Shown piece by piece: positions 2,772-56,945 of a stretch of DNA of 64,000 nucleotides. The DNA lies in IMG/VR virus record IMGVR_UViG_3300017963_000235, positions 1-64,000 of that record. One strand, written 5' to 3'. Within the stretch, counting starts at the first letter, position 1. Every line of letters starts with the position of its first letter. A program made the position numbers and the translations under genes. The notes under the pieces are model-generated. The model worked only from the letters and a program-made list of their open reading frames with translations, did no database searches and had not been told where the DNA came from. Source of the stretch: a virus.

Positions 2772-3069
2772 GAGAACTATTACAATCACCATAGAGATAG
2801 GGCACATACCTTATAAAACGACAGAGGTGACGAGAACCTTTACAGGGTCTAAGCAATCCAAGGTGTTGGAGGCCGTTAAGAACTTCGGGGATAGGTCGTT
2901 CACTGTTGATGATTTGTGCCATAAGATGATTTCATATCAGGATCCCAAAGGAAGAAGTAGGCTCAGACACATTCTATACAGGATGGTTAAGAACGGAAAG
3001 CTGGAGCAGGTAGGATACGGTCCTTCCGGTAAGGGCGGTAGTGGTCCCGCTATCTACAGGAGAGCTTAA
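2764..3069 (+). CDS. putative winged-helix DNA-binding protein
   Basis: FTVDDL...LRHILYRMVKNGKLEQVG...PAIYRR resembles a wHTH. Confidence 0.5.
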   Translation: MDKRTITITIEIGHIPYKTTEVTRTFTGSKQSKVLEAVKNFGDRSFTVDDLCHKMISYQDPKGRSRLRHILYRMVKNGKLEQVGYGPSGKGGSGPAIYRRA

Positions 3070-3071
3070 GC

Positions 3072-3449
3072 ATGGGTAACGCACAGGCTAAGAGGTGTGG
3101 ATGTTGTGGGATCCCAAAGCAACTATCCGAGTTCAGTAGGAACAAAGGCAAACGGCAGGGGGTGAATTCCCTCTGTAAGAGGTGCGATGTACTGAAGCAG
3201 AAGGAAAGACGAGAGAAGCAGCAGAGGAAATTAGTTCTCCTGGTACGTGCAGCATGTGAAGCCTTGATGAGTGAAGGGGCCTCCTCATTGATTCCTTGGA
3301 AGGATATAGAGCTCTACGATAAGAGGGGAAGGATTCATACCAATACTATCATGGCGGCTCTTAAGCGATATCCTAGGGCTGATTTAGAGATAGTTTCTAT
3401 GAAGTCTTTCTATGGGATTCATTACAGAAGGCGGGCGAGTCATGGGTAG
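3072..3449 (+). CDS. zinc-binding protein (N-terminal CxxC...CKxC module common in phage HNH/EndoVII proteins)
   Basis: KRCGCCGIPKQLSEF...SLCKRC; no nuclease core seen. Confidence 0.5.
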   Translation: MGNAQAKRCGCCGIPKQLSEFSRNKGKRQGVNSLCKRCDVLKQKERREKQQRKLVLLVRAACEALMSEGASSLIPWKDIELYDKRGRIHTNTIMAALKRYPRADLEIVSMKSFYGIHYRRRASHG

Positions 3450-3675
3450 TTGGATAGGCGTTACTGAGGATGAAAGAGTACTTTGGTATAATCCCATAGG
3501 GCTTATCTTGTGGATTTATTCGTTTGTGTATAGCCACATTTACAACATGTTTGCTGGGGATATCTGTTATAGAGCGGTGTGGAGGGATATCACAAGGGGG
3601 TTCTGGGACGATTTAGCAGGATGGCCTTTAAAGAGAAAGAAGAGAGACCACAACAAATTCACATCGGATAATTAA
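3442..3675 (+). CDS. hypothetical protein
   Basis: Likely start ATG 3442 overlapping the upstream gene end. Confidence 0.5.
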   Translation: MGSWIGVTEDERVLWYNPIGLILWIYSFVYSHIYNMFAGDICYRAVWRDITRGFWDDLAGWPLKRKKRDHNKFTSDN

Positions 3676-4332: not shown

Positions 4333-4713
4333 ATGTGTGAGAATGTTAGACCCAAACCTAAGGTAGGGGATACTCTGATATTAGTTGAGAACTACCATAG
4401 AAATTCATCACCTCGAATCAAAGAAGTCACAGTGGATAAGGTGGGTAGGAAGTATTTTAAAATCACAGGGGCTGGATACAGGGTCACACAGTTCTACATT
4501 GAGACATGGGAAGAGCATACAGAGTATCATTCTTATTGCTCTCTTTATGCTTCCTTGGAGGAGTATGCGGCTATTGTGTCAGTTAATTCGGCCTGTGGGT
4601 ATGTAAAACATAAGGTGCGTGATTTGGGTAAGGGGAGCATAACTGATGAGCAATGGATTGAGATAGCCAAGATTCTTGGTTGGACATCCGAGAAATATAA
4701 ACTTACGGAATAG
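4333..4713 (+). CDS. phage beta-barrel-like hypothetical protein
   Basis: KVGD...EVTVDKVGRKYF motif seen in many small phage proteins; SD AAGGAGG. Confidence 0.6.
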   Translation: MCENVRPKPKVGDTLILVENYHRNSSPRIKEVTVDKVGRKYFKITGAGYRVTQFYIETWEEHTEYHSYCSLYASLEEYAAIVSVNSACGYVKHKVRDLGKGSITDEQWIEIAKILGWTSEKYKLTE

Positions 4714-16909: not shown

Positions 16910-17293
16910 ATGTTTGTATTTGTAAGTTCTCCCTATGGGGCTAAGACTAAACACGAGAGATCTCTTAACGCTCGTGTAGCCGTTAGAATGTGTAAATGGA
17001 TTACGGATAATCGACCGGGGGAGATTCCGATAGCGCCCCACGTAATCTGTAGTCAGTGGTGGAACGATGAGTATGATCGGGATAAGGCAATAGCATGGTG
17101 TAGGTCTATTCTTCCTAGGTGTGGGAAACTCTACCAACTGAATGTACCTCTTACTACAGGAATGAAAGCGGAAGATATCCAGGCTAGGGATCTGGATGTT
17201 GAGATTGAAATCTTTGACCTTGAAAATTTACCTTACTTAGATTCTGATCTAATCCTCGTTCCGTTTGAGATACAGAAAGCGACAGCGTTTTGA
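16910..17293 (+). CDS. nucleoside 2-deoxyribosyltransferase-like (DUF4406-type) protein
   Basis: VFVSSPY...PIAPH...LPRC...TTGMKAE. Confidence 0.65.
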   Translation: MFVFVSSPYGAKTKHERSLNARVAVRMCKWITDNRPGEIPIAPHVICSQWWNDEYDRDKAIAWCRSILPRCGKLYQLNVPLTTGMKAEDIQARDLDVEIEIFDLENLPYLDSDLILVPFEIQKATAF

Positions 17294-17859
17294 AAAAGTA
17301 TAATATTTTGTATTGCGATCCTAACTGGAGCTACGACAATTCTGTCAGTAATGGGGCGGCTGTTAATCACTATCCAGTGCTGAAAACCGAGGAGTTAAAG
17401 AAGCTCCCTATTCAGGTGTTGTGTGCTGATATCTGCTATCTGTTTCTTTGGGCTACCCCTCCTATGTTGCCTGAGGCCTTGGAAACAATGAAAGCTTGGG
17501 GCTTCGAATATAAGACCAATGCATTTACTTGGATCAAGCTCAACAAAGATGGAACAGTGTTCAAGGGCACAGGCAACTATACACGGGCGAATACGGAGCT
17601 TTGTTTGTTAGGCAGGCGAGGACCAAGGACCCTTCCAAGAAATAGCAAATCAGTAGCCTCTGTAGTGATTGAGGAGCGCGGTAAGCACTCTGCTAAACCT
17701 AAAGAGGTAGCGGAGAGGATCGTGGATATGCTGGGAGACGTTCCCAGGATAGAGCTCTTTGCCCGAGATAAGAAGCCTGGATGGGATGCTACAGGGTTAG
17801 AATTAGACGGGAGGGATATACGCGATGTGTTAGCCGTTGGAGGGTTAGAGGATGCGTAA
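17290..17859 (+). CDS. MT-A70 family adenine methyltransferase
   Basis: ILYCDPNW, LFLWAT, WGFEYKT, YTRANTELCL, HSAKP, RIELFAR. Confidence 0.9.
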   Translation: MKKYNILYCDPNWSYDNSVSNGAAVNHYPVLKTEELKKLPIQVLCADICYLFLWATPPMLPEALETMKAWGFEYKTNAFTWIKLNKDGTVFKGTGNYTRANTELCLLGRRGPRTLPRNSKSVASVVIEERGKHSAKPKEVAERIVDMLGDVPRIELFARDKKPGWDATGLELDGRDIRDVLAVGGLEDA

Positions 17860-19128: not shown

Positions 19129-20094
19129 CTACATTAAACGATACAACAAATTCAAGTGCGGGTTTTCTTGATAGAATAGGTTGGTTAAAAGGTGGGTTAT
19201 GACATCTACTGTAAAGGAGTTCCCTAAGGCTTTATATCGCTGAGAGTTAGAGATACCTTCAGTGTATCCGTCCTCAAAAGTCTGAAGCCGTTCACATTCT
19301 ATCGGGGTTAGTTTTCGGACATAAGATAATGGGGTTTTCACATTTAGACGATTACAAAAGGAGGTTAGTGCAGGTGCTTTCCCTCGACTATCATACACTC
19401 TATTTTGCATGTAGGGCTGTTTACCTCCGCTTTCCTTAGAGGGGTTAACTTGTATGACCAAATGATTATTGTGTTCCCAAGAAGAAGAAGAAAGACAAGG
19501 GGTCTTACCATCCATAGCCCGCAGGCCTCCGGGGTTATTCCCTCTACCTTTTTGTTGGATTAACACTGTTTCAGAATGGATTGGAGGGTCTATTATATGT
19601 CGCAGCAGGATTCCACGATCCGTAGGTTGTTTGGTTCTCCAGTTACACCAGTACAGGCGTTGTCTATTTTGGGCGCTAACTAATGCGCTATTGATTTGGG
19701 TAGGATCCACCTTTAGAAGATCTGTTATCACTTGCCTGTATTCCTGCTTCATTCGTACATTCTCTAAAAGAAAGTATTTAGGTTTGAAATGGTTTAGGCA
19801 GTTTAGGAATTCGAAAAATAGTTTACTTCTAGGATCATTAAAATTGAGCTGTTTACCTGCAAAAGAGAATCCTTGACAGGGCGATCCCCCTATTAAAAGA
19901 TCGATGGTAGGGAGATCCCAGGTTTTCCATTGGGTGATATCCCCTAATTGTACCGTGTCTGGGAAGTTTTGTTGAGTTACTTTGATTGCATGCTTATTAA
20001 CTTCACTAGCGAAGTAGTTAGTTACTTTTAAGGGAGACCTTAGGAGTGCTACTTGAGCCCCGCTAATACCGTCAAAAAGAGATAGAACATTCAT
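19129..20094 (-). CDS. dcm: DNA cytosine-C5 methyltransferase
   Basis: VLSLFDG, GDI, GGSPCQGFS, LLENV, QNRQRLYW, RKLTPIECERLQ, RYKALGNS. Confidence 0.95.
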   Translation of the reverse strand: MNVLSLFDGISGAQVALLRSPLKVTNYFASEVNKHAIKVTQQNFPDTVQLGDITQWKTWDLPTIDLLIGGSPCQGFSFAGKQLNFNDPRSKLFFEFLNCLNHFKPKYFLLENVRMKQEYRQVITDLLKVDPTQINSALVSAQNRQRLYWCNWRTKQPTDRGILLRHIIDPPIHSETVLIQQKGRGNNPGGLRAMDGKTPCLSSSSWEHNNHLVIQVNPSKESGGKQPYMQNRVYDSRGKAPALTSFCNRLNVKTPLSYVRKLTPIECERLQTFEDGYTEGISNSQRYKALGNSFTVDVITHLLTNLFYQENPHLNLLYRLM

Positions 20095-20109
20095 AATCAC
20101 CTTTCATTA

Positions 20110-20337: not shown

Positions 20338-21666
20338 ATGAAAATAATTGGATTTCAAATTGTAGGCATTAGAAAGATTAATCTGTTAGAAATGGAACTC
20401 ACCGATAAAGGTTTGATTCCTATTAAAGGAGGTAACAGGCAGGGTAAGACCACGATTCTTGATAGCCTTGAGATGCTCTTTATGGGCAAGAAGACTATCC
20501 CTGCTGATGTGGTTCAGAAAGGGCGTAAGAGAGGTAGGATTGAAGCTACCTTGGCTGATGGGGATGACACATATGTGATCACCAGAGAGATAGCCAAAGG
20601 GGGTAAAACTCGACTGAAGATTACCCAAAATGGTAAGGCCTTCAAGGATAAGCCGGAATCATTCCTCAAGTCCCTGGTAAACATTCTCACATTCGATCCC
20701 CGTCCTTTCATGGATAAATCTGATAAAGAGAAACTGTCATTTATGATGGAGCTCCTTAATATCGATCTCTCCGATTTGGAAACGGAACACGCGGAGACCT
20801 ATCAGGGGCGTAGGGATATTGGCAGAGACATCAAATCTATAGGGGATCTTGTTCCAGTTCCTAAGACAGAGAAGGTAGATGTTCAGAAGATTCTTCTTGA
20901 GAAGGAGAGAATCAAAGAGAGTAATGAAACTTGCCGTAAAGGGATTGAGGAATCTAACCAGGCGCTGCGGGATGAGATCTCCAAACGGCAGAAACATGAA
21001 TCAACCCTTGAATCACTTAAGGTAGAAAGGGGGCGGTTAGAGGAAGTGCTGAGGCAGGCACAATCAGATCTGGAGGTTGTGAAAGCTCGTATTGATAACG
21101 GGGAGAGGTATCTTGCTGATCAGCCCGATTTGGAAGAGCCTAAAGAGTTCATCCCGGAATCTACCGAGGAGCTGGATCAGAAACTTGCTAACGCTGCGGA
21201 GATTAATGAGAAGGCTAGCGCCTATGCTGCGTATCTAGAGCGTCGTAAGGAGAAGGAGGAGTTAGAGAATACCTATGACGATATGACGGAGGCTCTTGAG
21301 AGGATTAAAACCCGCAAACAGGAGAGATTGTTAAAGGCACCTCTTCCGGTTGAAGGCCTTCAGATTGTCATTGAGGATCCTGATAAAGAGGATGGGGTGT
21401 ACTTTAATGGGATTCATTCGGCTAACTGGAGTGAGGCTGAGAGTATGCGGATTTCCTCAGAGTTATGCCTTGGAATGCAGCCCGAACTAAGAGCTCTATT
21501 CATTGACCGGGGAGAGGCTTATGATCCTGAGGGGCTTAAACAGCTCGATACTTGGGCCAGAGATAAGGATCTTCAAGCTATCATAACGATGGTTTCTCCT
21601 ATCCCTGATGTGTTGGAGCCTGGAGTATTCTACATCGAAGAGGGAGAACTTCTTTCAAATCCTTAG
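20338..21666 (+). CDS. SMC/Rad50-like (AAA_23) coiled-coil ATPase
   Basis: Walker A GGNRQGKTT, long coiled coil, degenerate signature SEAE, Walker B region LFIDRGE. Confidence 0.85.
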   Translation: MKIIGFQIVGIRKINLLEMELTDKGLIPIKGGNRQGKTTILDSLEMLFMGKKTIPADVVQKGRKRGRIEATLADGDDTYVITREIAKGGKTRLKITQNGKAFKDKPESFLKSLVNILTFDPRPFMDKSDKEKLSFMMELLNIDLSDLETEHAETYQGRRDIGRDIKSIGDLVPVPKTEKVDVQKILLEKERIKESNETCRKGIEESNQALRDEISKRQKHESTLESLKVERGRLEEVLRQAQSDLEVVKARIDNGERYLADQPDLEEPKEFIPESTEELDQKLANAAEINEKASAYAAYLERRKEKEELENTYDDMTEALERIKTRKQERLLKAPLPVEGLQIVIEDPDKEDGVYFNGIHSANWSEAESMRISSELCLGMQPELRALFIDRGEAYDPEGLKQLDTWARDKDLQAIITMVSPIPDVLEPGVFYIEEGELLSNP

Positions 21667-21684
21667 GTTGTGATTTTCTTTTCT

Positions 21685-21757
21685 AATTATCTCTTTTTCT
21701 GTTGACAATAAATTAGAGATGGGGTAGAACTAGATTAGTGAGGCAATGACGCCTCAC
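21685..21757 (+). promoter_or_regulatory. early-type promoter (TTGACA-17-TAGAAC) plus leader hairpin GTGAGGC-AATGAC-GCCTCAC
   Basis: TTGACA 21702-21707, TAGAAC 21725-21730, perfect 7-bp hairpin 21738-21757. Confidence 0.8.
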
Positions 21758-21776
21758 CGATTCTAAGGAGATTCAC

Positions 21777-22058
21777 ATGAACCCTACTAAAAGCCACACT
21801 CAGAGAGCCTGCATCAAGATGAGAAATAACGAACCTATGACTTCCATGGAAAAATCCCTTGTTGCGCTTAAGGCTACTCCTGTGGTTACGGAATCCGGTA
21901 AACTGTGTGTCTCTGTGGCCTTCAACGATGGGGAGCCCCTGGTTAAAGATTATGTGGTTATAACTAGTCTCGGATCCGTCAACCTGTATCTTAGGGTGGG
22001 TTCTGTTCGGGTTGATTGGGATAAGGGCGTTACTATCTGTAGTGTGTATCAGGATTAG
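21777..22058 (+). CDS. hypothetical early protein
   Basis: SD AAGGAG. Confidence 0.65.
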   Translation: MNPTKSHTQRACIKMRNNEPMTSMEKSLVALKATPVVTESGKLCVSVAFNDGEPLVKDYVVITSLGSVNLYLRVGSVRVDWDKGVTICSVYQD

Positions 22059-22356
22059 GGGGTTCATTGTGTTTCCATCGGCTACAACTTACTGGACTAT
22101 GATAGTCCCCAAGATTAGGGTTAGAGCTAAGGGCTGCTGTGAAGAATGCGGCAGGAAAGATTTCCTATGGGTGACAGCTAAGAAGGATTTAGAGGATTGG
22201 GAGTACCTGGAGATAACAGGTGTGCAGCCTTTACCCTTGGAGAAGTCGAATCTTATAGCGGTATGTTATCGGTGTGCTGGCCCCTTCCTTGTGATCGCTG
22301 AGCTCTATCAGGCGTCTAAAAAGAAGTATTATCAAAGGGAGTTACAATTTGATTAA
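22012..22356 (+). CDS. degenerate HNH-like protein (true start probably downstream of 22058)
   Basis: RAKGCCEECG...SNLIAVCYRC; catalytic His residues not evident; ends QRELQFD. Confidence 0.45.
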   Translation: MIGIRALLSVVCIRIRGFIVFPSATTYWTMIVPKIRVRAKGCCEECGRKDFLWVTAKKDLEDWEYLEITGVQPLPLEKSNLIAVCYRCAGPFLVIAELYQASKKKYYQRELQFD

Positions 22357-22359
22357 CTT

Positions 22360-22432
22360 ATTTTTCTTTTTTCTCTTGACAATATTTCTCTATGTTCTAT
22401 AACTATAAGTAGTGAGGCAATGACGCAGCACT
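22360..22432 (+). promoter_or_regulatory. early-type promoter (TTGACA-16-TATAAC) plus leader hairpin
   Basis: TTGACA 22376-22381, TATAAC 22398-22403, AGTGAGGCAATGACGC shared with 21737. Confidence 0.8.
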
Positions 22433-22452
22433 AACCCCAAAGGAGACCTAAC

Positions 22453-22827
22453 ATGACACCTTCCAAATTCAACATCACCAATGATAAATTTTCCTCTGAC
22501 TCTGCTATTGTGACTTTCGATGAGTTCATTGAGCTCTGTGAGTCCCTGGATTGGGAGCCTGAGATGGTCCGCGAGGGCAACAACGAGCACGGCGAATGGA
22601 GTCTCATGCACGGTGACGAGTGCGTAGGCCCCGAAATCTGTTCAGAGAATAACCTGTATCTGGTTAACGGATACGCTGGGGAGTGGGATGATGCGGTTAT
22701 TGAGGCCGCTAGTGGGTACGCTGCTGCTAGAGAATACGCAGACAATTTCCCATCTATAGACCCCGCATGGCATAAGATGCGCCTTAGTGTTAACGGGTGC
22801 CTGGTGGAGATTCCTGTTAATAACTAA
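22453..22827 (+). CDS. highly acidic early protein
   Basis: About 24 D/E versus about 6 K/R in 124 aa (hand count); SD AAAGGAG. Confidence 0.7.
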   Translation: MTPSKFNITNDKFSSDSAIVTFDEFIELCESLDWEPEMVREGNNEHGEWSLMHGDECVGPEICSENNLYLVNGYAGEWDDAVIEAASGYAAAREYADNFPSIDPAWHKMRLSVNGCLVEIPVNN

Positions 22828-22833
22828 CATATA

Positions 22834-22996
22834 CCCCACGCGGCGATTACGTATCAAAGCGTGGGGACAACGTACACCGGGTAAGCTCTGAAAGGTTCCT
22901 GTGAATATTCTAGACCACAGTATAGCTTAGTAAGGTTGGCTGCTATTAACGGTGCTACCCCATGGAGGCGATCACGTTCAAATCCATGGGACAGCC
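22834..22996 (+). ncRNA. unassigned structured RNA with a repeated loop motif
   Basis: Two 8-bp stems of different sequence enclose GGCGATTACGTATCAAA and GGCGATCACGTTCAAA. Confidence 0.55.
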
Positions 22997-23030
22997 GCAA
23001 TAAAGCGGAGTGTTTAAAGGAGATCGATTA

Positions 23031-23342
23031 ATGACTAAAGCCCAGATACTTAAACAACTCACAGATGCCGGTATTGAGACATCTCAGGTGAATCCTGTCG
23101 CCCTTAGGTACAATTCTCACAAAGGAGTGTGGGAGTCCATGAAAAATTATCCTAAGATTAAAATCGTCAATAATACCGTTGAGGTTGTGGTTACCGATAA
23201 GTACGGCGAGTGTGATATAGATGCTACAAACGATCTTATGGACCTGGTGAAGGATGCATTAGCAAGTAGCGCGACTTGGGACCCCTACACTAGAGTGTAT
23301 AAGGTTCCTGCTTGTAGAATGTGGGAAGTTTGTTCTTTTTAG
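23031..23342 (+). CDS. hypothetical protein
   Basis: SD AAAGGAG before ATG 23031. Confidence 0.65.
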   Translation: MTKAQILKQLTDAGIETSQVNPVALRYNSHKGVWESMKNYPKIKIVNNTVEVVVTDKYGECDIDATNDLMDLVKDALASSATWDPYTRVYKVPACRMWEVCSF

Positions 23343-23358
23343 ATTAGTTTAAAATTTC

Positions 23359-23722
23359 GGGCGTGAAATAGATTCGACATGGAAAGAGAGGATACTGATT
23401 GCACCCAAGAGAAGCGTGAGGCTCTTGTAAAACTCCACGTACCTAAATAATTCAGAACGATGAATTAAAACAAGCTGCCGCTTAGGTAGCCTCCCTAGAG
23501 TTGATTCCTGCTAGATTCTAGGGAGACATTAGCGGGATAGTGGATCAGAAAGACCTGGTAGGCGTTACACCTCTGAGACACGATAAAAGATCGCTTTGTT
23601 GTCTACCGGGAGATTGAGTTTGTTCGTTCGTAAATCTCCTACCAACACAAACGGACTATGGTGTAACGAGTCAGTATATTATTTTTCCGTGGACACCGGG
23701 GCAGTACCGGTCACGTCCACCA
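23359..23722 (+). ncRNA. ssrA: tmRNA (one-piece)
   Basis: 5' GGGCGTG-AAATAGATTCGAC; 3' CACGTCC-A-CCA giving a G3-U wobble; pseudoknot 1 CAAGAG/CTCTTG and CGTG/CACG; tag frame 23453-23485 QNDELKQAAA*. Confidence 0.95.
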
Positions 23723-23730
23723 TTGATAGG

Positions 23731-23898
23731 GTTAGTTGCTATGTGTCCTAGGGATTAGACTTACCTCCTTTAGTCTCCCTTGGAGAGCAACCTAACGATT
23801 ACAGTTTCCTCATTCCTGGGTCATTGACTGTAATTGTTTGAGATGAGCAAGAATACACTTTGCTGGTCTAAGGATTCGCGTCCCTGCCCTATCTCAAA
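23731..23898 (+). ncRNA. three back-to-back stem-loops downstream of tmRNA
   Basis: 23731-23796 (loop TACCTCCTTT), 23796-23836 (CGATTACAGTT/GACTGTAATTG), 23837-23898 (TTTGAGAT/ATCTCAAA). Confidence 0.55.
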
Positions 23899-23949
23899 TT
23901 TCTCTTGAAACTATTTCGAGAGTGGTTATCTTTTCAATAGGAGATCGTA

Positions 23950-24117
23950 ATGTTGCTTTTATTAACCCTCATCATAGCAATTCTAAACTGCTCTAGAGCT
24001 GTTGTGATATTCTTCCTTAACGCTGGGGGTATGTTCTACTCCATGAAGGAAGCTATAGGGCTCACTTCAACCAAACCCAAATGCTCTTTTAGAGTCTACA
24101 AGGAAGGCTTTCCTTAG
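23950..24117 (+). CDS. small hydrophobic protein (55 aa, not in ORF track)
   Basis: SD AGGAG, ATG 23950, MLLLLTLIIAILNCSRAVVIFFL...; possible promoter TTGAAA...TATCTT upstream. Confidence 0.45.
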   Translation: MLLLLTLIIAILNCSRAVVIFFLNAGGMFYSMKEAIGLTSTKPKCSFRVYKEGFP

Positions 24118-24126
24118 ATGCTATAT

Positions 24127-24350
24127 CGGGGTGTTAGCGTGAGCAGTCGTTAACCTCCCGCCCAAAACATCCAAACCCATAGCTTCGGTAACGGGGTTAT
24201 GGGTGGCGTATACAAAGTGTGGTTCCCATGATGAAGGATCAAAACCGCACCGTTTGCCCGCGTGAAGGGTGTAAGAAAATCCAGATGACCCAGTTAGAAT
24301 AGCGTTATGAGGTTATCAGGTCGTCCTAGGGTATGACGAAAACTACCCTT
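24127..24350 (+). ncRNA. unassigned multi-hairpin structured RNA preceding tRNA-Pro
   Basis: At least five stems, including ACCCATAGCTTCG-GTAA-CGGGGTTATGGGT, GTGTGGTT/AACCGCAC, GATGACC/GGTCGTC and AGGGTA/TACCCT. Confidence 0.5.
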
Positions 24351-24353
24351 TAT

Positions 24354-24427
24354 CGGAGTATAGCTCAGTCTGGTAGAGTACTCGGTTTGGGGCCGAGATG
24401 TCGTGGGTTCGGATCCCACTACTCCGA
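24354..24427 (+). tRNA. tRNA-Pro(TGG)
   Basis: Acceptor CGGAGTA/TACTCCG, D arm with TGG, anticodon arm CTCGG-TTTGGGG-CCGAG, T arm GTGGG-TTCGGAT-CCCAC; CCA not encoded. Confidence 0.93.
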
Positions 24428-24432
24428 CACTA

Positions 24433-24516
24433 GCCCGAATGGCGAAATTGGTAGACGCGACAGACTTAAAATCTGTTAAGAGAAATCTTGTATCGGTTCG
24501 ATTCCGATTTCGGGCA
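24433..24516 (+). tRNA. tRNA-Leu(TAA)
   Basis: Acceptor GCCCGAA/TTCGGGC, anticodon arm ACAGA-CTTAAAA-TCTGT, long variable arm, TTCGATT loop; CCA not encoded. Confidence 0.93.
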
Positions 24517-24552
24517 CTGTGTTATCGTCAGCACTTAACGGTGGAGGCGTCT

Positions 24553-24581
24553 AGGGCGAGGAGACTCGCCCATTTTTTTTT
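24553..24581 (+). terminator. intrinsic terminator closing the RNA island
   Basis: GGGCGAG-GAGA-CTCGCCC followed by A and a T run. Confidence 0.8.
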
Positions 24582-24596
24582 ACATGGAGGATCGTC

Positions 24597-24818
24597 ATGC
24601 TCACAACTATTTGGGTTAAAGAGTTAATAAAAGGCAAAGATACACCATTGAATCATGGGTCATTCGATGTCCCGTTTATCCCACACAAAGGGGATTACGT
24701 ATTTTTAAAGATGCACGTTAAAGGGGGCATGGGGCGGTACGAGGTTATTTCTAGATATTGGACTGAGAATTTCACAGCTTGTACTTTAGTTGTGGTGTTT
24801 CTTGACGAAGTGAAATAA
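24597..24818 (+). CDS. hypothetical protein
   Basis: SD GGAGG. Confidence 0.6.
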   Translation: MLTTIWVKELIKGKDTPLNHGSFDVPFIPHKGDYVFLKMHVKGGMGRYEVISRYWTENFTACTLVVVFLDEVK

Positions 24819-24888
24819 ATCAATTCAGGCATTAGACAAAATACAGGGGATCCGATAACGTAACAGTAATTACTGGAGAGTTATCGGT

Positions 24889-26034
24889 ATGGAAATTCCT
24901 AATATAAATAGAGCGGCTTTGCACGGTACAGGAGCTTCACAATCTCATGTGCCTGAGTTCCTAGATAAGATAGACCTAATCATAAATACCTTAAATCCAA
25001 TTGTGGGGGATCCCGGTGAGTTTAATAACTTCATAAATTTTAATGCTGGATTAGCGATACTGGGGGCTATTCTAGGAGATGCTCCGGGATCAATTGCCTG
25101 GGATCCTATAAAGGGTAACTTGTTAGTAAGAGGCAAATATCCGGGTAATATCTGGAATGCCGGTAAAGAGACCTTTGTGGATGTGTGTAATCAGACCGGA
25201 GACACATTAGAAGATGGAACAGTTGTTTATATCAATGGGTTTAACGAGGCTTCCGATTGCCACACAGTGGTTAAGGCTAAAGCGGATTCGCTTGATAACG
25301 CTAAATTACTGGGGGTTGTAACAACAACCATGACACATGGATCCATGGGATTGGTTACGAAATTTGGACGGGTCAATGAGATTGACACATCGGGAGAAGC
25401 CGCAGGAGCCCCCATCTATTTAAGCGATACCGAAGAAGGGGGGTGGACTACTACTAAGCCTCCTGTAGCGTTTAGGATAGGGTATATAGGTTGCGTAGGT
25501 CCCTCCGGATGTATTCTGGTGGACATACAAGAACAACAGCCCTCCATCTTTGGTAGCTTTTATTCTGCGGTAAACCAATTTTTTGCGGATGGAGTGACTT
25601 CCAAAGTAGTGCCTTTAGAGGAGGAGTATGAGGTTAAAGGATTAGGCCACTCCAAAACGGTTAACCCCGAGGAGATAACCTTTCTATCCTCGGGTGTATA
25701 CGTTATTACAGGAAACTTTCAATTGAATAGAACGGCTGGGGGTGCCTCCCCTGAGGATGTCAAAGCATGGCTACAAAAATCAATTGATGATGGGGTTACA
25801 TGGGTTAATGTGCCGTGGACTACTATTAGTCAGGCATCCACAGATCAGGGCGATCCCGCTCGCTTATCGGCTAATGTTGGAGCCCCTTTTGATAGAAATG
25901 ATAGAATACGGGTAAGAGCAAGAGCAACGTCTTCCGATATATTCCTGGAGGCGATTAATTCTGAAGGTGACGGCGAGCATGAGGCCCCTGGTCAGGCTAG
26001 CGTTATGTTTTCCGTTTATAGGTTAGGAGATTAA
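24889..26034 (+). CDS. putative head decoration/fibre protein (cement-like middle domain, C1q/BclA-like C-terminus)
   Basis: Shared N-terminal GTGxSxSHV..FLD.ID motif; GTVVYI...LLGVV...G.V..IDTS...GAPIYLS; SGVYVITGNFQ. Confidence 0.55.
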   Translation: MEIPNINRAALHGTGASQSHVPEFLDKIDLIINTLNPIVGDPGEFNNFINFNAGLAILGAILGDAPGSIAWDPIKGNLLVRGKYPGNIWNAGKETFVDVCNQTGDTLEDGTVVYINGFNEASDCHTVVKAKADSLDNAKLLGVVTTTMTHGSMGLVTKFGRVNEIDTSGEAAGAPIYLSDTEEGGWTTTKPPVAFRIGYIGCVGPSGCILVDIQEQQPSIFGSFYSAVNQFFADGVTSKVVPLEEEYEVKGLGHSKTVNPEEITFLSSGVYVITGNFQLNRTAGGASPEDVKAWLQKSIDDGVTWVNVPWTTISQASTDQGDPARLSANVGAPFDRNDRIRVRARATSSDIFLEAINSEGDGEHEAPGQASVMFSVYRLGD

Positions 26035-53826: not shown

Positions 53827-54363
53827 ATGAGTGGCGTTCTTCTTCAATCAAGAGCTCCCTATCCAAAAGAGAACACACAAGAGAACTGGTTACAATGGGC
53901 CGTAGATGCTAGTGATGTTATCTTAGAGCGGTTTAGGGAACTTCAGAAATCCAACCTACTATCGGATGCGTTATATGCGGGTTGTATGACGGTGCTCTAT
54001 AGAATCCCGGTAAACGCATTTCCTTTTGGGATCCCTAAGGAGGAGATAGTATTGCAAGATGTGGTTATGGCTTCCGGTTATTATCTGACAGCTCCCGTAT
54101 TGCGAGAGTTGGTGAATATGAGTCCTCAGTTCTCTAGGCCTGATTTAGATTTGGCTAATCGGATTTATAGGGAGTCTAGTAAGCGGGGTATCAAACCCTC
54201 TACCCTTGTTCGGTCTATGGGATTAAGTTATCAGAGGGTGATGCCGTGGTTGATTATTGGTAATTTTTTACCTCCAGATGTCCGGAACGTGATACAGGAG
54301 GCGTTAAATGTGAGAGGTCTAAAATGGATGCACACAAAGAAATGGGTACAGACACAGTTTTAA
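53827..54363 (+). CDS. hypothetical protein with possible C-terminal Cro/XRE HTH
   Basis: RGIKPSTLVRSMGLSYQRVMPW..G..LP. Confidence 0.5.
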   Translation: MSGVLLQSRAPYPKENTQENWLQWAVDASDVILERFRELQKSNLLSDALYAGCMTVLYRIPVNAFPFGIPKEEIVLQDVVMASGYYLTAPVLRELVNMSPQFSRPDLDLANRIYRESSKRGIKPSTLVRSMGLSYQRVMPWLIIGNFLPPDVRNVIQEALNVRGLKWMHTKKWVQTQF

Positions 54364-55499
54364 AAATTGAAGAATGGAAGCTTAAGGATATTAAGCCTTA
54401 CTATTTGAATGCTAAAACCCATGAGGTGGGTAGAATAGCGGCTAGTATAGCGGAGTTTAAAGTGGATCAACCTATTGTTGTGGATGGGGATGGGGTGATC
54501 ATTAAGGGGCATGGGCGATTGAAGGCGGCTAAGAGGCTTAAGTTAAAAACCTTCCCTGTAGTTGTGAGAGAGGATTTGACTCCTGAACAGGTTAGATTGG
54601 CGCGTTTATCTGATAACCGAAGTGCGGAAGCTCCATGGGATACTAAACTTTTAGAGAAGGAGTTAGAGGATTTGAATCTTCCTGAAATAGATTTGGATGT
54701 ATCAGCCCTTGGTATCGATTCTGATTGGTTGGAGGGGTTGGATATTACTCTAGATTTAGGGGGTCTTCATCCACCTAACATACCTCCTGTAGAAGAGAAG
54801 AGTCCCGTCCCTGAGATCCCCACTATCCCTAACGCTAAGCGTGGTGACGTGTATCTGTTGGGACACCACAGGGTAATGTGCGGGGATGCTTCTGATCAAA
54901 AAGATATTACAGCGTTATTAAATGGGGCTATTGTGGATATGCTGGTAACAGATCCTCCTACAAAACCTGTTGAGGGAGTTTCGGATGCTGAGGTTCAACA
55001 ACTGTGCGTGAGTGCCTTTAAAGGAATCCCCTTGTCCAAGTACAACACGGTATACTGTTTTGCTCACGGTAAACGATTACGCACAGTTCTCGATGTGTTT
55101 GAGAATATGGGGTGGCACTTTTCACAGCATTTAGCATGGGTGCATAACCACCATAGTCCAGGATTAGACTACAGCCCTAGAACAGAATTGATCTTTTACG
55201 GGTGGAAGGGGAAGCACAAGTATTACGGATCCTTCTCTAAAGATGTCCTAGAGTTTGATCACCCTGGAGCCCCTGAGGATAAACCCACAGATCTTTTAGG
55301 ATCGCTTATTGATAACGGGTCTCCTGAAGGTGGGGTGGTCTATGATTCTTTTGGAGGCCTTGGGAGTAGTTTAATAGCGTGTGAGCAGACGGGACGTAAG
55401 GCCCTGGTTATGGAAATATCCCCGGCTTATGTAGATGTGATCGTTAAACGGTGGGAAGATCTCACCGGCAAGACTGCAAGGTTAGTATCTGAAGACTGA
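54324..55499 (+). CDS. ParB-like N-terminal domain fused to N4/N6 DNA methyltransferase
   Basis: IKPY..NAKTH, PIVVD...IIKGHGRL, RLSDNR; HRVMCGD, TDPPT, KPTDL, YDSFGGLGS. Confidence 0.9.
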   Translation: MDAHKEMGTDTVLKIEEWKLKDIKPYYLNAKTHEVGRIAASIAEFKVDQPIVVDGDGVIIKGHGRLKAAKRLKLKTFPVVVREDLTPEQVRLARLSDNRSAEAPWDTKLLEKELEDLNLPEIDLDVSALGIDSDWLEGLDITLDLGGLHPPNIPPVEEKSPVPEIPTIPNAKRGDVYLLGHHRVMCGDASDQKDITALLNGAIVDMLVTDPPTKPVEGVSDAEVQQLCVSAFKGIPLSKYNTVYCFAHGKRLRTVLDVFENMGWHFSQHLAWVHNHHSPGLDYSPRTELIFYGWKGKHKYYGSFSKDVLEFDHPGAPEDKPTDLLGSLIDNGSPEGGVVYDSFGGLGSSLIACEQTGRKALVMEISPAYVDVIVKRWEDLTGKTARLVSED

Positions 55500-56232: not shown

Positions 56233-56484
56233 CTAGGCAGGGTTAATGCGTCTGGTGAAGTCTTCACCTTCGCCGTCAGAGGTCCAGATAGTGACGAAAC
56301 CTTTTGGAGGGTTTTCCTTGAGCAGTTTTGAGTGAGCTGCTCTAGCTTCGTATCCGTCTTTGTGAGTAGAGATGACAGCCCCACTGAAGAAAGATACGGA
56401 TTCAAGATTGAGATCTCCATTTCTGTTTCTACGAAGTTTGTGGGTTTCTTTTGCGTAGGTCTCGTTGATAATTCCAAAAAGCAT
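56233..56484 (-). CDS. hypothetical protein
   Basis: SD AAAGGAG before ATG 56484. Confidence 0.6.
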   Translation of the reverse strand: MLFGIINETYAKETHKLRRNRNGDLNLESVSFFSGAVISTHKDGYEARAAHSKLLKENPPKGFVTIWTSDGEGEDFTRRINPA

Positions 56485-56566
56485 ATTGAGCTCCTTTGAT
56501 TGTTTCCGCTTTATTGCGGCGGTCCCATGGATTTGAACGTGATCGCCTCCATGGGGTGGGCTTGGG

Positions 56567-56839
56567 CTAGTCTCGGGTGTTGGGGATGGCGTCGGATTCC
56601 TTTTCCGCCTCCATTCGCTGTGAAATCTTATAGAGATCGCTTTTTCTATAGCGCGCCTCCCGTATTTTCCAACATCTCTTGCTCCGCCAAAACGCGATTT
56701 TTCTAGAAATGATTGGATGCGCATGCCTCCATAACGCGCCAATGAAAAGCGGAATAACAACCACGGGCCATGGCCAATGGATGCTGCCAGATACTCTTAA
56801 TGTAGCAAGCACGATGAAGATAATTACGGTGACTGACAT
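56567..56839 (-). CDS. small 2-TM membrane protein
   Basis: IIFIVLATLRVSGSIHWPWPVVVIPLF. Confidence 0.65.
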   Translation of the reverse strand: MSVTVIIFIVLATLRVSGSIHWPWPVVVIPLFIGALWRHAHPIISRKIAFWRSKRCWKIREARYRKSDLYKISQRMEAEKESDAIPNTRD

Positions 56840-56871: not shown

Positions 56872-56945
56872 TATGAAGATTAACGCCTCACTACCTATAG
56901 TTATACTCCCCTCCGTTTTGTTGTCAAGAGAAAAAAGGAAAATAA
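56872..56945 (-). promoter_or_regulatory. early-type promoter (TTGACA-16-TATAAC) plus GTGAGGC leader hairpin
   Basis: Reverse complement reads TTTTTCTCTTGACA...TATAACTATAGGTAGTGAGGCG, matching 14648 and 22376. Confidence 0.75.

What the first reader, a model, noticed from the sequence alone, without database searches (positions are those of the whole stretch)
22834..22996. One loop motif presented by two unrelated stems: candidate new RNA motif
Seen: CCCCACGC-[GGCGATTACGTATCAAA]-GCGTGGGG (22834-22866) and CCCATGGA-[GGCGATCACGTTCAAA]-TCCATGGG (22959-22990), with a third nested stem between them (TAAGCT/AGCTTA enclosing CTGTG/CACAG). The stems differ in sequence but pair perfectly while the 16-17-nt loop is conserved, which is the signature of a selected structure. 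The loop combines GG with a T-loop-like (G)TTCAAA. Inference: a protein-binding aptamer, such as a tRNA-elbow mimic, a nut/put-like antitermination signal ahead of the RNA island, or a decoy against a host defence protein.
Basis: partly seen in the sequence, partly recalled or inferred. Interest (0 to 1): 0.75.

Follow-up and report, generated by a model that had tools for sequence, protein, structure and literature searches.

The report
Conserved-loop RNA hairpin shared by phages
The two hairpins are real copies of an uncatalogued phage RNA element, a changeable stem carrying an almost fixed 16-letter loop, that recurs just after genes in many distantly related uncultured phages and probably marks transcript boundaries for a still unknown binding partner.

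Summary
A third copy lies on the minus strand (56524-56555). It matches copy 2 at 52 of 53 bases, including a small second hairpin, and sits in the same layout: promoter, small gene, element, RBS, gene. No Rfam 15 family matches.

The same 16-nt loop with different, perfectly paired 7-9 bp stems occurs in about 15 other lineages of uncultured phage or metagenome contigs. Contig GC ranges from 39 to 63%, and protein similarity between them is little or none. In prokaryote genome representatives the same 16-mer almost never has a flanking stem.

The element always lies on the sense strand. It usually starts 1-11 nt after a stop codon. It sometimes forms tandem arrays of 3-6 copies, and twice it sits inside phage tRNA arrays. 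G-U pairs far outnumber mismatches, so the sense strand folds, most likely as RNA.

The function is unproven. My best reading is a portable cistron-boundary ("punctuation") hairpin whose loop is bound by a trans factor. The rivals are a nut/put-like signal, a decoy or tRNA mimic, and a DNA-level hairpin.

The "third nested stem" has no statistical support.

Earlier notes of this scan describe other conserved-loop hairpins in other phages, but none has this loop on other DNA.

The parts
22834..22866 (+). Hairpin copy 1: 8-bp stem with a 17-nt loop variant (one substitution and one inserted A relative to the canonical loop). It starts 6 nt after the TAA stop of gene 22453-22827.
   Evidence: 46.2 bits; z -4.07
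22959..22990 (+). Hairpin copy 2: 8-bp stem with the canonical 16-nt loop (22967-22982).
   Evidence: 52.8 bits; z -3.43
22995..23008 (+). Small second hairpin (4-bp stem, 6-nt loop), 4 nt after copy 2. It is part of the 53-nt unit shared with copy 3.
   Evidence: (58-nt unit z -4.14)
56524..56555 (-). Same stem and loop as copy 2. It starts 11 nt after the TAG stop of gene 56567-56839 (-).
   Evidence: (52.8 bits)
56506..56519 (-). Small second hairpin after copy 3, identical to 22995-23008.
22453..22827 (+). Upstream cistron of copies 1 and 2: a 124-aa acidic protein with no family hit. It is the first gene behind the promoter at 22376-22403.
23031..23342 (+). Downstream cistron of copy 2 (103 aa, no family hit). 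An AAAGGAG ribosome-binding site lies 40 nt after the hairpin. The tmRNA gene follows 17 nt after its stop.
56567..56839 (-). Upstream cistron of copy 3: a 90-aa, probably membrane, protein. It is the first gene behind the promoter at 56927-56900 (-).
56233..56484 (-). Downstream cistron of copy 3 (83 aa, no family hit).
22376..22403 (+). Sigma-70-like promoter: TTGACA, a 16-nt spacer, then TATAAC. It has a conserved leader shared with the minus-strand unit. Inferred from sequence only.
   Evidence: (repeat D6); lead from earlier notes e1-6123568 and e1-6123559
56900..56927 (-). Matching promoter of the minus-strand unit: TTGACA, a 16-nt spacer, TATAAC, and the same leader word. Inferred from sequence only.

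Best explanation
The element is a portable cis-acting RNA hairpin. Its stem (usually 7-9 bp, 5 bp in tRNA arrays) is free to change as long as it pairs. The loop GGCGAUCAC(G/A)UUCAAA and the G-C pair next to the closing pair are held almost constant. It is transcribed as part of phage operons, typically starts within about 10 nt of the stop codon of a cistron, and presents its loop to a trans-acting factor.

The most likely role is transcript 'punctuation'. The hairpin would mark where polycistronic early or middle messages (and tRNA/tmRNA precursors) are cut, or where their 3' ends are protected. This would uncouple the fate of the upstream cistron from what follows.

Shown: the hairpin family, its compensatory stems, its strand and its position.

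Inferred: that it acts as RNA, that a factor reads the loop, and that the outcome is processing or stabilisation.

I put about 0.8 on 'selected RNA-level structured element'. The 0.4 below is for the whole statement, including the punctuation role.
For: 1. The loop recurs on unrelated stems.
- Of the 42 viral contigs that hold the exact 16-mer, 8 have at least 7 contiguous flanking pairs, and 3 more have 6 pairs under one mismatch.
- Of 119 metagenome hits, 16 have at least 7 pairs.
- The chance of 7 such pairs is about 0.001 per hit.
- Controls: 54 prokaryote-genome loci gave 1 hit with 7 pairs, plus one phage-like contig. The 61 new loci found with a variant loop gave 0 stems of 5 or more.

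2. Covariation. On 33 distinct sequences, 87.8% of cells pair, all 9 pairs change on both sides, and 0 of 500 shuffles reach the observed value. Slid registers pair only 31-46%.

3. Strand. The 7 core pairs hold 21 G-U/U-G cells against 5 non-pairs. The loop is on the coding strand of the flanking genes or tRNAs in every lineage where genes could be assigned. This includes copy 3, which is inverted together with its minus-strand genes.

4. Position. The hairpin starts 1-11 nt after a same-strand stop codon in window copies 1 and 3 and in the G002, G003, L018, L021, L253 and L249 lineages. The gap is 25 nt in L315.

5. It sits in tRNA arrays in L297 and L239, with a compensatory C-G to U-A change between the two.

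6. The carriers share little or no protein similarity and span 38.6-62.7% GC.

7. Neighbouring genes are diverse: exonuclease and gp2.5-like SSB, MazG, a TerS region, and small membrane proteins. This fits a general transcript signal rather than a gene-specific switch.
Against: - No transcript data exist. No RNA run holds this DNA, so no cleavage site or 3' end has been seen.
- No partner was found. No protein family is shared by the carrier contigs beyond a DNA methylase and the terminase.
- A plain protective hairpin would not need a conserved loop, and a 16-nt loop is unlike known RNase III, E or P sites.
- In G001, G004 and L418 the element lies 81-222 nt from the nearest stop.
- Arrays of 3-6 copies in untranslated spacers fit a sponge at least as well as punctuation.
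- Most members were retrieved with the exact loop as the query. The apparent invariance of the loop is therefore partly built in, and the set used for pair counts was chosen for having stems.
- Sense-strand bias would also arise for a hairpin on the lagging-strand template DNA.
Confidence: 0.4

Rival explanations
1. A transcription-elongation signal in the nascent RNA. This would be a nut/put-like element that makes RNA polymerase resistant to downstream terminators, or conversely a factor-dependent pause or termination site, placed after the first gene of an operon.
For: In the window both units have the layout promoter, first small gene, hairpin, next genes. From recalled knowledge, this is the position of lambda nutR behind cro. 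In the L021, L338 and L284 lineage a strong intrinsic terminator follows the hairpin by about 60-130 nt. An RNA that acts on the conserved polymerase itself could explain one loop being shared by phages of very different GC.
Against: There is no U-tract after the hairpins, and no terminator-like site was called at them. No boxA-like word is shared by the three window copies (seen by eye, not scanned). The loop is 16 nt, not a pentaloop. In the L021 lineage a new promoter follows the terminator, so read-through is not obviously wanted. Copies inside tRNA arrays and arrays of six are not expected for nut sites.
Confidence: 0.2
2. A decoy or sponge RNA. The loop would mimic part of a cellular RNA, for example a tRNA elbow/T-loop or an anticodon-like loop, and would titrate a host protein: a tRNA-processing or tRNA-modifying enzyme, an RNA chaperone or a defence nuclease. 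Tandem arrays would raise the capacity.
For: G001 has a tandem array of 3 copies and G002 one of 6, spaced about 85-140 nt apart in long untranslated G-rich regions. The letters UUCAA are invariant in all 33 distinct sequences apart from the one inserted A in copy 1, and they equal the recalled T-loop pentamer. The element co-locates with tRNA or tmRNA genes in G000, L297 and L239.
Against: tRNA and tmRNA models do not match the element. The closing pair covaries freely, so the canonical T-loop closure with the conserved C two bases into the 3' arm cannot form together with the stem. G001, G002, G003, G004 and G005 have no tRNA. Most genomes carry only 1-3 copies inside mRNAs, which is a poor sponge. 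The exact 16-mer (searched with its conserved flanking G and C) is rare in 185,579 prokaryote genomes: 54 loci. It is therefore not a copy of a conserved cellular RNA segment.
Confidence: 0.15
3. A DNA-level element. It would be a hairpin extruded on the single-stranded lagging-strand template, or simply a conserved homology patch used for recombination, and would serve replication priming or cassette shuffling, as the promoter/stem-loop cassettes of T4-type phages do.
For: Copies 2 and 3 are 52/53 identical in inverted orientation 33.5 kb apart. They flank unrelated cargo genes behind near-identical promoters. This is the pattern reported for PeSL cassettes (PMC2839356; abstract read). Several contigs break close to the element. 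The coding strand is also the lagging-strand template when genes run with the fork.
Against: Homology arms do not explain compensatory stem changes under a fixed loop across lineages. There are 21 G-U cells against 5 mismatches, and G-T pairs are poor in DNA. A 16-nt loop is costly to extrude from duplex DNA. PeSL stem-loops are terminators next to promoters, whereas here the promoter and the hairpin are at opposite ends of the gene and there is no U-tract.
Confidence: 0.12
4. No function of its own: a short repeat spread by duplication or horizontal transfer that happens to be palindromic.
For: Copies 2 and 3 are recent duplicates. Some stems recur between lineages. The GGCGGC/GCCGCC top is shared by the L018, L021, L253, L249 and L418 lineages, and a CCATGG-based stem is shared by G000 and G002.
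Against: At least 10 different stem sequences carry one loop. All 9 pairs covary. Strand and position relative to genes are consistent. The element persists in contigs from 38.6 to 62.7% GC, including an AT-rich stem in L315.
Confidence: 0.03

Closest known systems
PeSL (promoter-early stem-loop) regulatory cassettes of T4-type phages (Arbiol et al. 2010, PMC2839356; abstract read)
   Same: Small accessory genes in a myovirus are bracketed by repeated regulatory sequences (a sigma-70-like promoter and a stem-loop). Near-identical copies at distant loci flank unrelated cargo, which suggests recombination between them.
   Different: PeSL stem-loops are effective terminators joined to the promoter. 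Here there is no U-tract, the promoter and hairpin lie at opposite ends of the gene, the conserved part is a 16-nt loop rather than the whole cassette, and the same loop occurs in distantly related or unrelated phages.
Lambda-type nut sites (boxA + boxB bound by N) and HK022 put RNAs (recalled knowledge; no paper read)
   Same: An RNA hairpin with a sequence-specific loop on a variable stem, lying in the transcript behind the first gene of an early operon and duplicated in two divergent operons of one phage.
   Different: The loop is 16 nt, not a pentaloop. No shared boxA was seen. No N-like partner was identified. The loop is shared across lineages, whereas boxB and N pairs are phage-specific. 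The element also occurs in tandem arrays, in 3' UTRs ahead of terminators and in tRNA arrays.
Intercistronic processing or stabiliser hairpins: RNase III sites between T7 early genes, REP-type stabilisers, and the tRNA-like 'punctuation' of organelle transcripts (recalled knowledge)
   Same: It sits immediately after stop codons between cistrons of long transcripts, and between tRNAs. The structure is conserved while the stem sequence drifts.
   Different: The helix is too short for RNase III. Known stabilisers need no conserved loop. The element does not match tRNA models. No cleavage has been observed.
CsrB/RsmZ-type sponge RNAs and the guanidine-II (mini-ykkC) riboswitch: repeated hairpins with one conserved loop on variable stems (recalled knowledge; both families are in Rfam)
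   Same: Several hairpins in a row show the same loop on different stems.
   Different: There is no Rfam match. The canonical loop is 16 nt, lacks the GGA of Csr sponges and is not an ACGR tetraloop. The downstream genes are unrelated to one another, so a metabolite switch is unlikely.
Other conserved-loop/variable-stem hairpin families noted by this scan in other phages (e1-5897476, e1-5906304, e1-5958526; AI notes, unchecked)
   Same: The same architecture (fixed loop, free stem) and often the same position just after stop codons between early genes.
   Different: Those loops have different sequences and each is lineage-specific. A look-up by sequence found this loop only in this genome.

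Membership tests
Any Rfam 15 family | A covariance-model match at or near the family's gathering score | tested here: not met
   No match overlaps 22834-22996 even at E<=10. The whole window at gathering threshold gave only two tRNAs. There was no match at the hairpins of 18 related loci.
tRNA / tRNA T-arm | A cloverleaf, or a 5-bp T-stem closing a 7-nt loop | tested here: not met
   ARAGORN and the Rfam tRNA model find nothing at the element. The loop is 16-17 nt. The covarying closing pair is incompatible with the canonical T-loop closure.
tRNA / tRNA T-arm | T-loop pentamer U-U-C-R-A (recalled) | tested here: met
   UUCAA is present in all 33 distinct sequences, interrupted by one inserted A in window copy 1. 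The letters alone do not show the fold.
Lambda-type nut site | A boxB hairpin with a 5-nt loop | tested here: not met
   The loops are 16-17 nt.
Lambda-type nut site | A boxA word upstream and an N-type antiterminator gene | not tested
   No word is shared upstream of the three copies by eye. There was no systematic boxA scan and no N-like protein search. The neighbouring proteins have no family hits.
Intrinsic terminator / PeSL stem-loop | A G+C-rich hairpin with a 3-8 nt loop followed by a U-tract | tested here: not met
   The terminator scan of 21500-25000 lists 8 sites, none at 22834-22990. The sequence after all three copies lacks a T-run.
PeSL cassette | Repeated regulatory sequences flanking unrelated small genes, with signs of exchange between copies | tested here: met
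   52/53 identity between copy 2 and copy 3, with near-identical promoters and unrelated cargo.
Guanidine-II riboswitch (mini-ykkC) | Two hairpins with ACGR tetraloops upstream of guanidine-related genes | tested here: not met
   No Rfam match. The loops are 16 nt. The neighbouring genes are unrelated.
Csr/Rsm sponge RNA | Many GGA-containing loops | tested here: not met
   The canonical loop begins GGC. GGA occurs only in 3 variants of the G002 array. No Rfam match.
K-turn / K-loop | A 3-nt bulge followed by tandem sheared G-A pairs next to a regular stem | not testable with these tools
   The loop can be written as a 3-nt 5' segment plus GA facing AA. This is a paper model only. The second pair would be A-A, not A-G.

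The most novel reading that the evidence does not exclude
The 16-nt loop folds into a compact module, such as a self-contained T-loop/elbow mimic or a K-turn-like fold, that binds a component conserved across bacteria (RNase P, the ribosome, RNA polymerase or a tRNA enzyme). Unrelated phages of hosts with very different GC content would then have adopted one universal RNA 'address tag'. Single copies would punctuate or protect messages. Arrays would soak up the factor or blunt a tRNA-directed defence.
Probability: 0.2. Interest if true: 0.85.

Novelty: new variant of a known kind. Interest (0 to 1): 0.62.

Why it matters
Phage gene control after transcription is known in detail for only a handful of model phages. 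This element is small and easy to synthesise. Its loop is held almost letter for letter in uncultured phages from sediment, seawater and other metagenomes with 39-63% GC. That degree of conservation points to a partner that is either universal in bacteria or travels with the element. Finding the partner would add a new RNA-protein (or RNA-RNA) recognition pair and a likely tool for insulating cistrons. It would also give a marker for annotating transcript boundaries in the large mass of uncultured phage genomes. If the loop mimics a tRNA feature, it would also bear on how phages deal with tRNA-directed defences.

Tried and rejected
- Known-family look-ups: Rfam at gathering and at E-value thresholds found nothing at the element.
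- Cultured relatives:
  - blastn of 22400-23400 against GenBank phages gave no match.
  - tblastn with the terminase, the L018 exonuclease and the L315 ATPase gave only hits of 28% identity or less. No annotated or studied relative could be examined.
- Variant loops: the G002 variant loop retrieved only chance matches. A scan with three loop positions left open added only one variant, G to A at loop position 10.
- Third nested stem, or a structured RNA between copies 1 and 2: no better than shuffles.
- Decayed tRNA between the copies: 22919-22936 resembles the 5' part of the window's tRNA-Pro at 15 of 18 positions (repeat D9). I could draw no anticodon arm or acceptor, and no model matches. 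I treat it as chance.
- Larger cloverleaf around the motif in L297 and L239: the two differences in the outer stems break pairs instead of compensating, and the fold has z -0.78.
- Rho-evasion idea (C-poor arrays): the arrays are G-rich but not unusually C-poor. 228 of 464 windows in G001 and 256 of 816 in G002 have as little C.
- ECF-sigma promoter reading (GGAAC, about 16 nt, CGTT): it fits some copies in G001 and G002 by eye but not the window, L018 or others, and it does not explain stem covariation.
- Mini-ORF inside copies 2 and 3 (ATG 22962 to TAA 23001, 13 codons): no ribosome-binding site, and absent from other lineages. I regard it as incidental to the CCATGG stem.
- Partner protein:
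  - The window encodes a Phage_ProQ_C_like protein (4333-4713, E 1.3e-17).
  - None of 5 other carrier records has this family. All five are fragments of 3-61% completeness, so this neither supports nor excludes it.
  - All-against-all blastp and phmmer of carrier contigs found no family shared by more than 3 lineages.
- Expression: no RNA holder was listed for this DNA.
- Literature:
  - Full-text search for four words taken from the loop found only unrelated primer sequences.
  - Two topic searches found no description.
  - Fremin et al. 2023 (PMC10690425) predicted 10,006 structured RNAs in IMG/VR. I read its outline and abstract. A term search found that its main text holds none of the words loop, hairpin or tandem. 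'Not described' therefore rests on Rfam 15 and only.

Full report
**What is in the window.** Each hairpin folds far better than shuffles (z -4.07 and -3.43). The loop pattern matches three times in the window and never in 100 shuffles.

Together with a small second hairpin it is 52/53 identical to copy 2. The window is the first 64 kb of an 84.7-kb IMG/VR virus record. A covariance model finds only these three copies in the whole record. The record is a myovirus-type phage (tail sheath, baseplate, tape measure, PolA). It has no cultured relative closer than about 24% terminase identity.

**The two loci are built alike.** Each has a sigma-70-like promoter: TTGACA, a 16-nt spacer, TATAAC and a shared leader word, at 22376-22403 (+) and 56927-56900 (-). 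The promoter is followed by a small unrelated first gene, then the element within 6-11 nt of its stop, then the small second hairpin, then an AAAGGAG ribosome-binding site about 40 nt on, and a second small unrelated gene. The promoters are inferred from sequence only.

On the plus strand the operon continues, 17 nt after gene 23031-23342, into a tmRNA gene (23359-23722, 72.6 bits). Farther on are tRNA-Pro, tRNA-Leu and a clear terminator at 24554. So 'ahead of the RNA island' is correct here.

**What is not supported.** An 18-nt resemblance to the 5' part of tRNA-Pro does not extend to a tRNA-like fold.

**The element is a family.** I scanned 2.9 million viral contigs for the loop.
- Of the 42 contigs with the exact 16-mer, 8 carry it between at least 7 contiguous complementary bases of quite different sequence. 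Three more have 6 pairs under one mismatch.
- The chance of 7 flanking pairs is about 0.001 per hit.

Two controls behave as chance predicts.
- In one genome for each of 185,579 prokaryote species, the same word gave 54 loci. One had a 7-bp stem, inside what looks like coding sequence. One phage-like contig is related to the L018 group.
- A variant loop gave 61 new loci with no stem of 5 or more.

On 33 distinct sequences, 87.8% of stem cells pair, all nine pairs change on both sides, and no shuffle or slid register comes close (for the first 14). This set was chosen for having stems. The independent evidence is therefore the excess of stems over the controls, not the shuffle test.

The pair next to the closing pair is G-C in 31 of 32 sequences, while the closing pair itself varies freely.

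**Who carries it.** There are about 15 lineages:
- G000 (this record)
- G001, G002, G003 (with L291, L325, L240), G004 and G005
- the L018 group (with L131, L174, L118, L119, L129, L279, L286, L320)
- the L021 group (with L338, L284)
- L253, L249, L315 and L418/L420
- the tRNA-array contigs L297 and L239

The L121 group is doubtful.

Contig GC runs from 38.6 to 62.7%. Protein comparison finds almost nothing shared. A terminase and a portal-region protein at about 30-35% identity link G000 and G001, and a ParB-methylase occurs in three contigs. The carriers are fragments, so 'unrelated' is too strong; 'at most distantly related' is safe.

Because the scans used the loop itself as the query, loop invariance is partly built in. 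The variation I could see comes from neighbours found by the model:
- window copy 1
- a G-to-A change at loop position 10 in G001 and L418
- four degenerate loops in the G002 array

Through all of these, G2, GAU, C9 and UUCAA persist.

**Strand and place.**
- In every lineage where flanking genes could be assigned, the loop is on their coding strand. In L297 and L239 it is on the strand of the surrounding tRNAs.
- The seven core pairs contain 21 G-U cells against 5 non-pairs. The complementary strand would carry A-C mismatches instead, so it is the sense strand that folds.
- The hairpin starts 1-11 nt after a same-strand stop codon in window copies 1 and 3 and in the G002, G003, L018, L021, L253 and L249 lineages.
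- It starts 25 nt after the stop in L315, and 81-222 nt away in G001, G004 and L418.
- The distance to the next start codon is larger, about 30-50 nt or more.
- The neighbouring genes have nothing in common: exonuclease then gp2.5-like SSB, MazG, a region before TerS, an AAA ATPase, and small membrane or unknown proteins.
- In the L021 group the element lies in a 3' UTR, followed 60-130 nt later by a classical terminator and a new promoter.
- G001 has three copies and G002 six, spaced 85-140 nt apart in long untranslated stretches that are G-rich (35-38% G) but not unusually C-poor.
- L297 and L239 carry a 5-bp-stem version between tRNA genes, with one compensatory change between the two contigs.

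**Reading.** These facts fit a general-purpose RNA signal at cistron boundaries whose loop is read by something in trans. I favour transcript punctuation, meaning a cut site or a protected 3' end (0.4 for the whole statement; about 0.8 that it is a selected RNA-level structure). The reasons are its position at the end of cistrons, its indifference to gene content, and its presence among tRNA and tmRNA precursors, which are processed anyway. The fold predicted for all three window copies is a lower stem, a 3x3 internal loop (GGC facing AAA), a 2-3-bp GA(U)/(A)UC mini-helix and a small apical loop. The inserted A of copy 1 adds a pair to that mini-helix. This is a model, not a result.

**Rivals.**
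- A nut/put-like or pausing signal (0.2) fits the 'after the first gene' layout of the window. It fits poorly with arrays, tRNA arrays and 3' UTR copies.
- A decoy or tRNA-elbow mimic (0.15) fits the arrays and the UUCAA letters. It conflicts with the covarying closing pair, and most carriers lack tRNA genes.
- A DNA-level hairpin or recombination patch (0.12) fits the 52/53 duplicate and resembles PeSL cassettes (PMC2839356; abstract read). It does not explain compensated stems or the G-U excess.

No partner was found. The window's Phage_ProQ_C_like protein is a natural suspect for hairpin binding but is absent from the five other carrier records, all of them fragments.

**Known or new.**
- No Rfam 15 family matches.
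- Full-text searches for loop words and for the topic found no description.
- The large IMG/VR survey of Fremin et al. (PMC10690425) may list the element in supplementary tables that I could not open. Its main text does not discuss such a hairpin.
- Earlier notes of this scan describe several other fixed-loop, free-stem hairpins in other phages, with other loops and each confined to one lineage.

I class it as a new variant of a known kind, the phage cis-acting hairpin with a recognition loop. What is unusual is how widely and how exactly the 16-nt loop is kept.

Noticed in passing
window 23359-23722 (+): A phage-encoded one-piece tmRNA (72.6 bits; gathering score 47; ends in CCA). It begins 17 nt after the stop of gene 23031-23342. 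It was found only in E-value mode: the gathering-mode scan of the whole window and ARAGORN both missed it.
   Followed up: partly
window 22370-22420 (+) and 56935-56885 (-): Two near-identical promoter-plus-leader units (T-rich tract, TTGACA, 16-nt spacer, TATAAC, then a shared GTAGTGAGGC word) drive the two hairpin-bearing operons. The consensus scan did not call them, because the -10 lacks the final T.
   Followed up: partly
window 4333-4713 (+): A 126-aa protein matching Pfam Phage_ProQ_C_like (PF24203, E 1.3e-17, above the cut-off). It is a possible RNA-hairpin binder encoded by the phage. It was not found in five other hairpin-bearing records, all of which are fragments.
   Followed up: partly
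window 22962-23001 (+) and 56552-56513 (-): A 13-codon ORF (ATG in the 5' arm, TAA in the loop of the small second hairpin) runs through copies 2 and 3. The single A/C difference between the copies changes one residue. There is no ribosome-binding site, and the ORF is absent from other lineages.
   Followed up: partly
window 22884-22895 (+): The word AGCTCTGAAAGG between copies 1 and 2 loosely recalls rrn/lambda boxA words (recalled, not scanned). There is nothing comparable upstream of copy 3.
   Followed up: no
window 17290-17859 (+), 19129-20100 (-), 54324-55499 (+): Three DNA methyltransferase genes: MT-A70 type, C5-cytosine type, and a ParB-N plus N6/N4 type. The last is the only protein family shared by three hairpin-bearing records (G000, G001, G005).
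   Followed up: partly
L212 (G001) 580-1070 and L214 (G002) 2923-3595: Long untranslated regions with 3 and 6 hairpins of the family. The spacers are 35-38% G and are full of GGCAAGG-like words that often end just before each hairpin. Their meaning is unknown.
   Followed up: partly
L297 757-947 (-) and L239 4445-4771 (-): A spacer of about 190 nt inside phage tRNA arrays, conserved between two contigs, contains the motif on a 5-bp stem. The rest of the spacer is conserved in sequence, but no supported structure was found for it.
   Followed up: partly
L021 about 1330-1470, L338, L284 (downstream of the hairpin): In this lineage the hairpin is followed by a strong intrinsic terminator and then a consensus promoter. 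Here the element sits in a 3' UTR, possibly the 5' end of a 3'-UTR-derived small RNA.
   Followed up: no
L018 3835-3872 (-), also L131, L286 and L279: Between the hairpin and the SSB gene lies a small GAAA-loop hairpin and a conserved AT-rich word (ATTAYAAAATTTATA) just before the ribosome-binding site. It may be a phage-specific promoter.
   Followed up: no
L174 (contig binned in a Patescibacteria MAG): This 7.5-kb contig is 84-95% identical in protein to the L018 phage group. It is probably a phage contig mis-binned into, or infecting, that MAG.
   Followed up: partly
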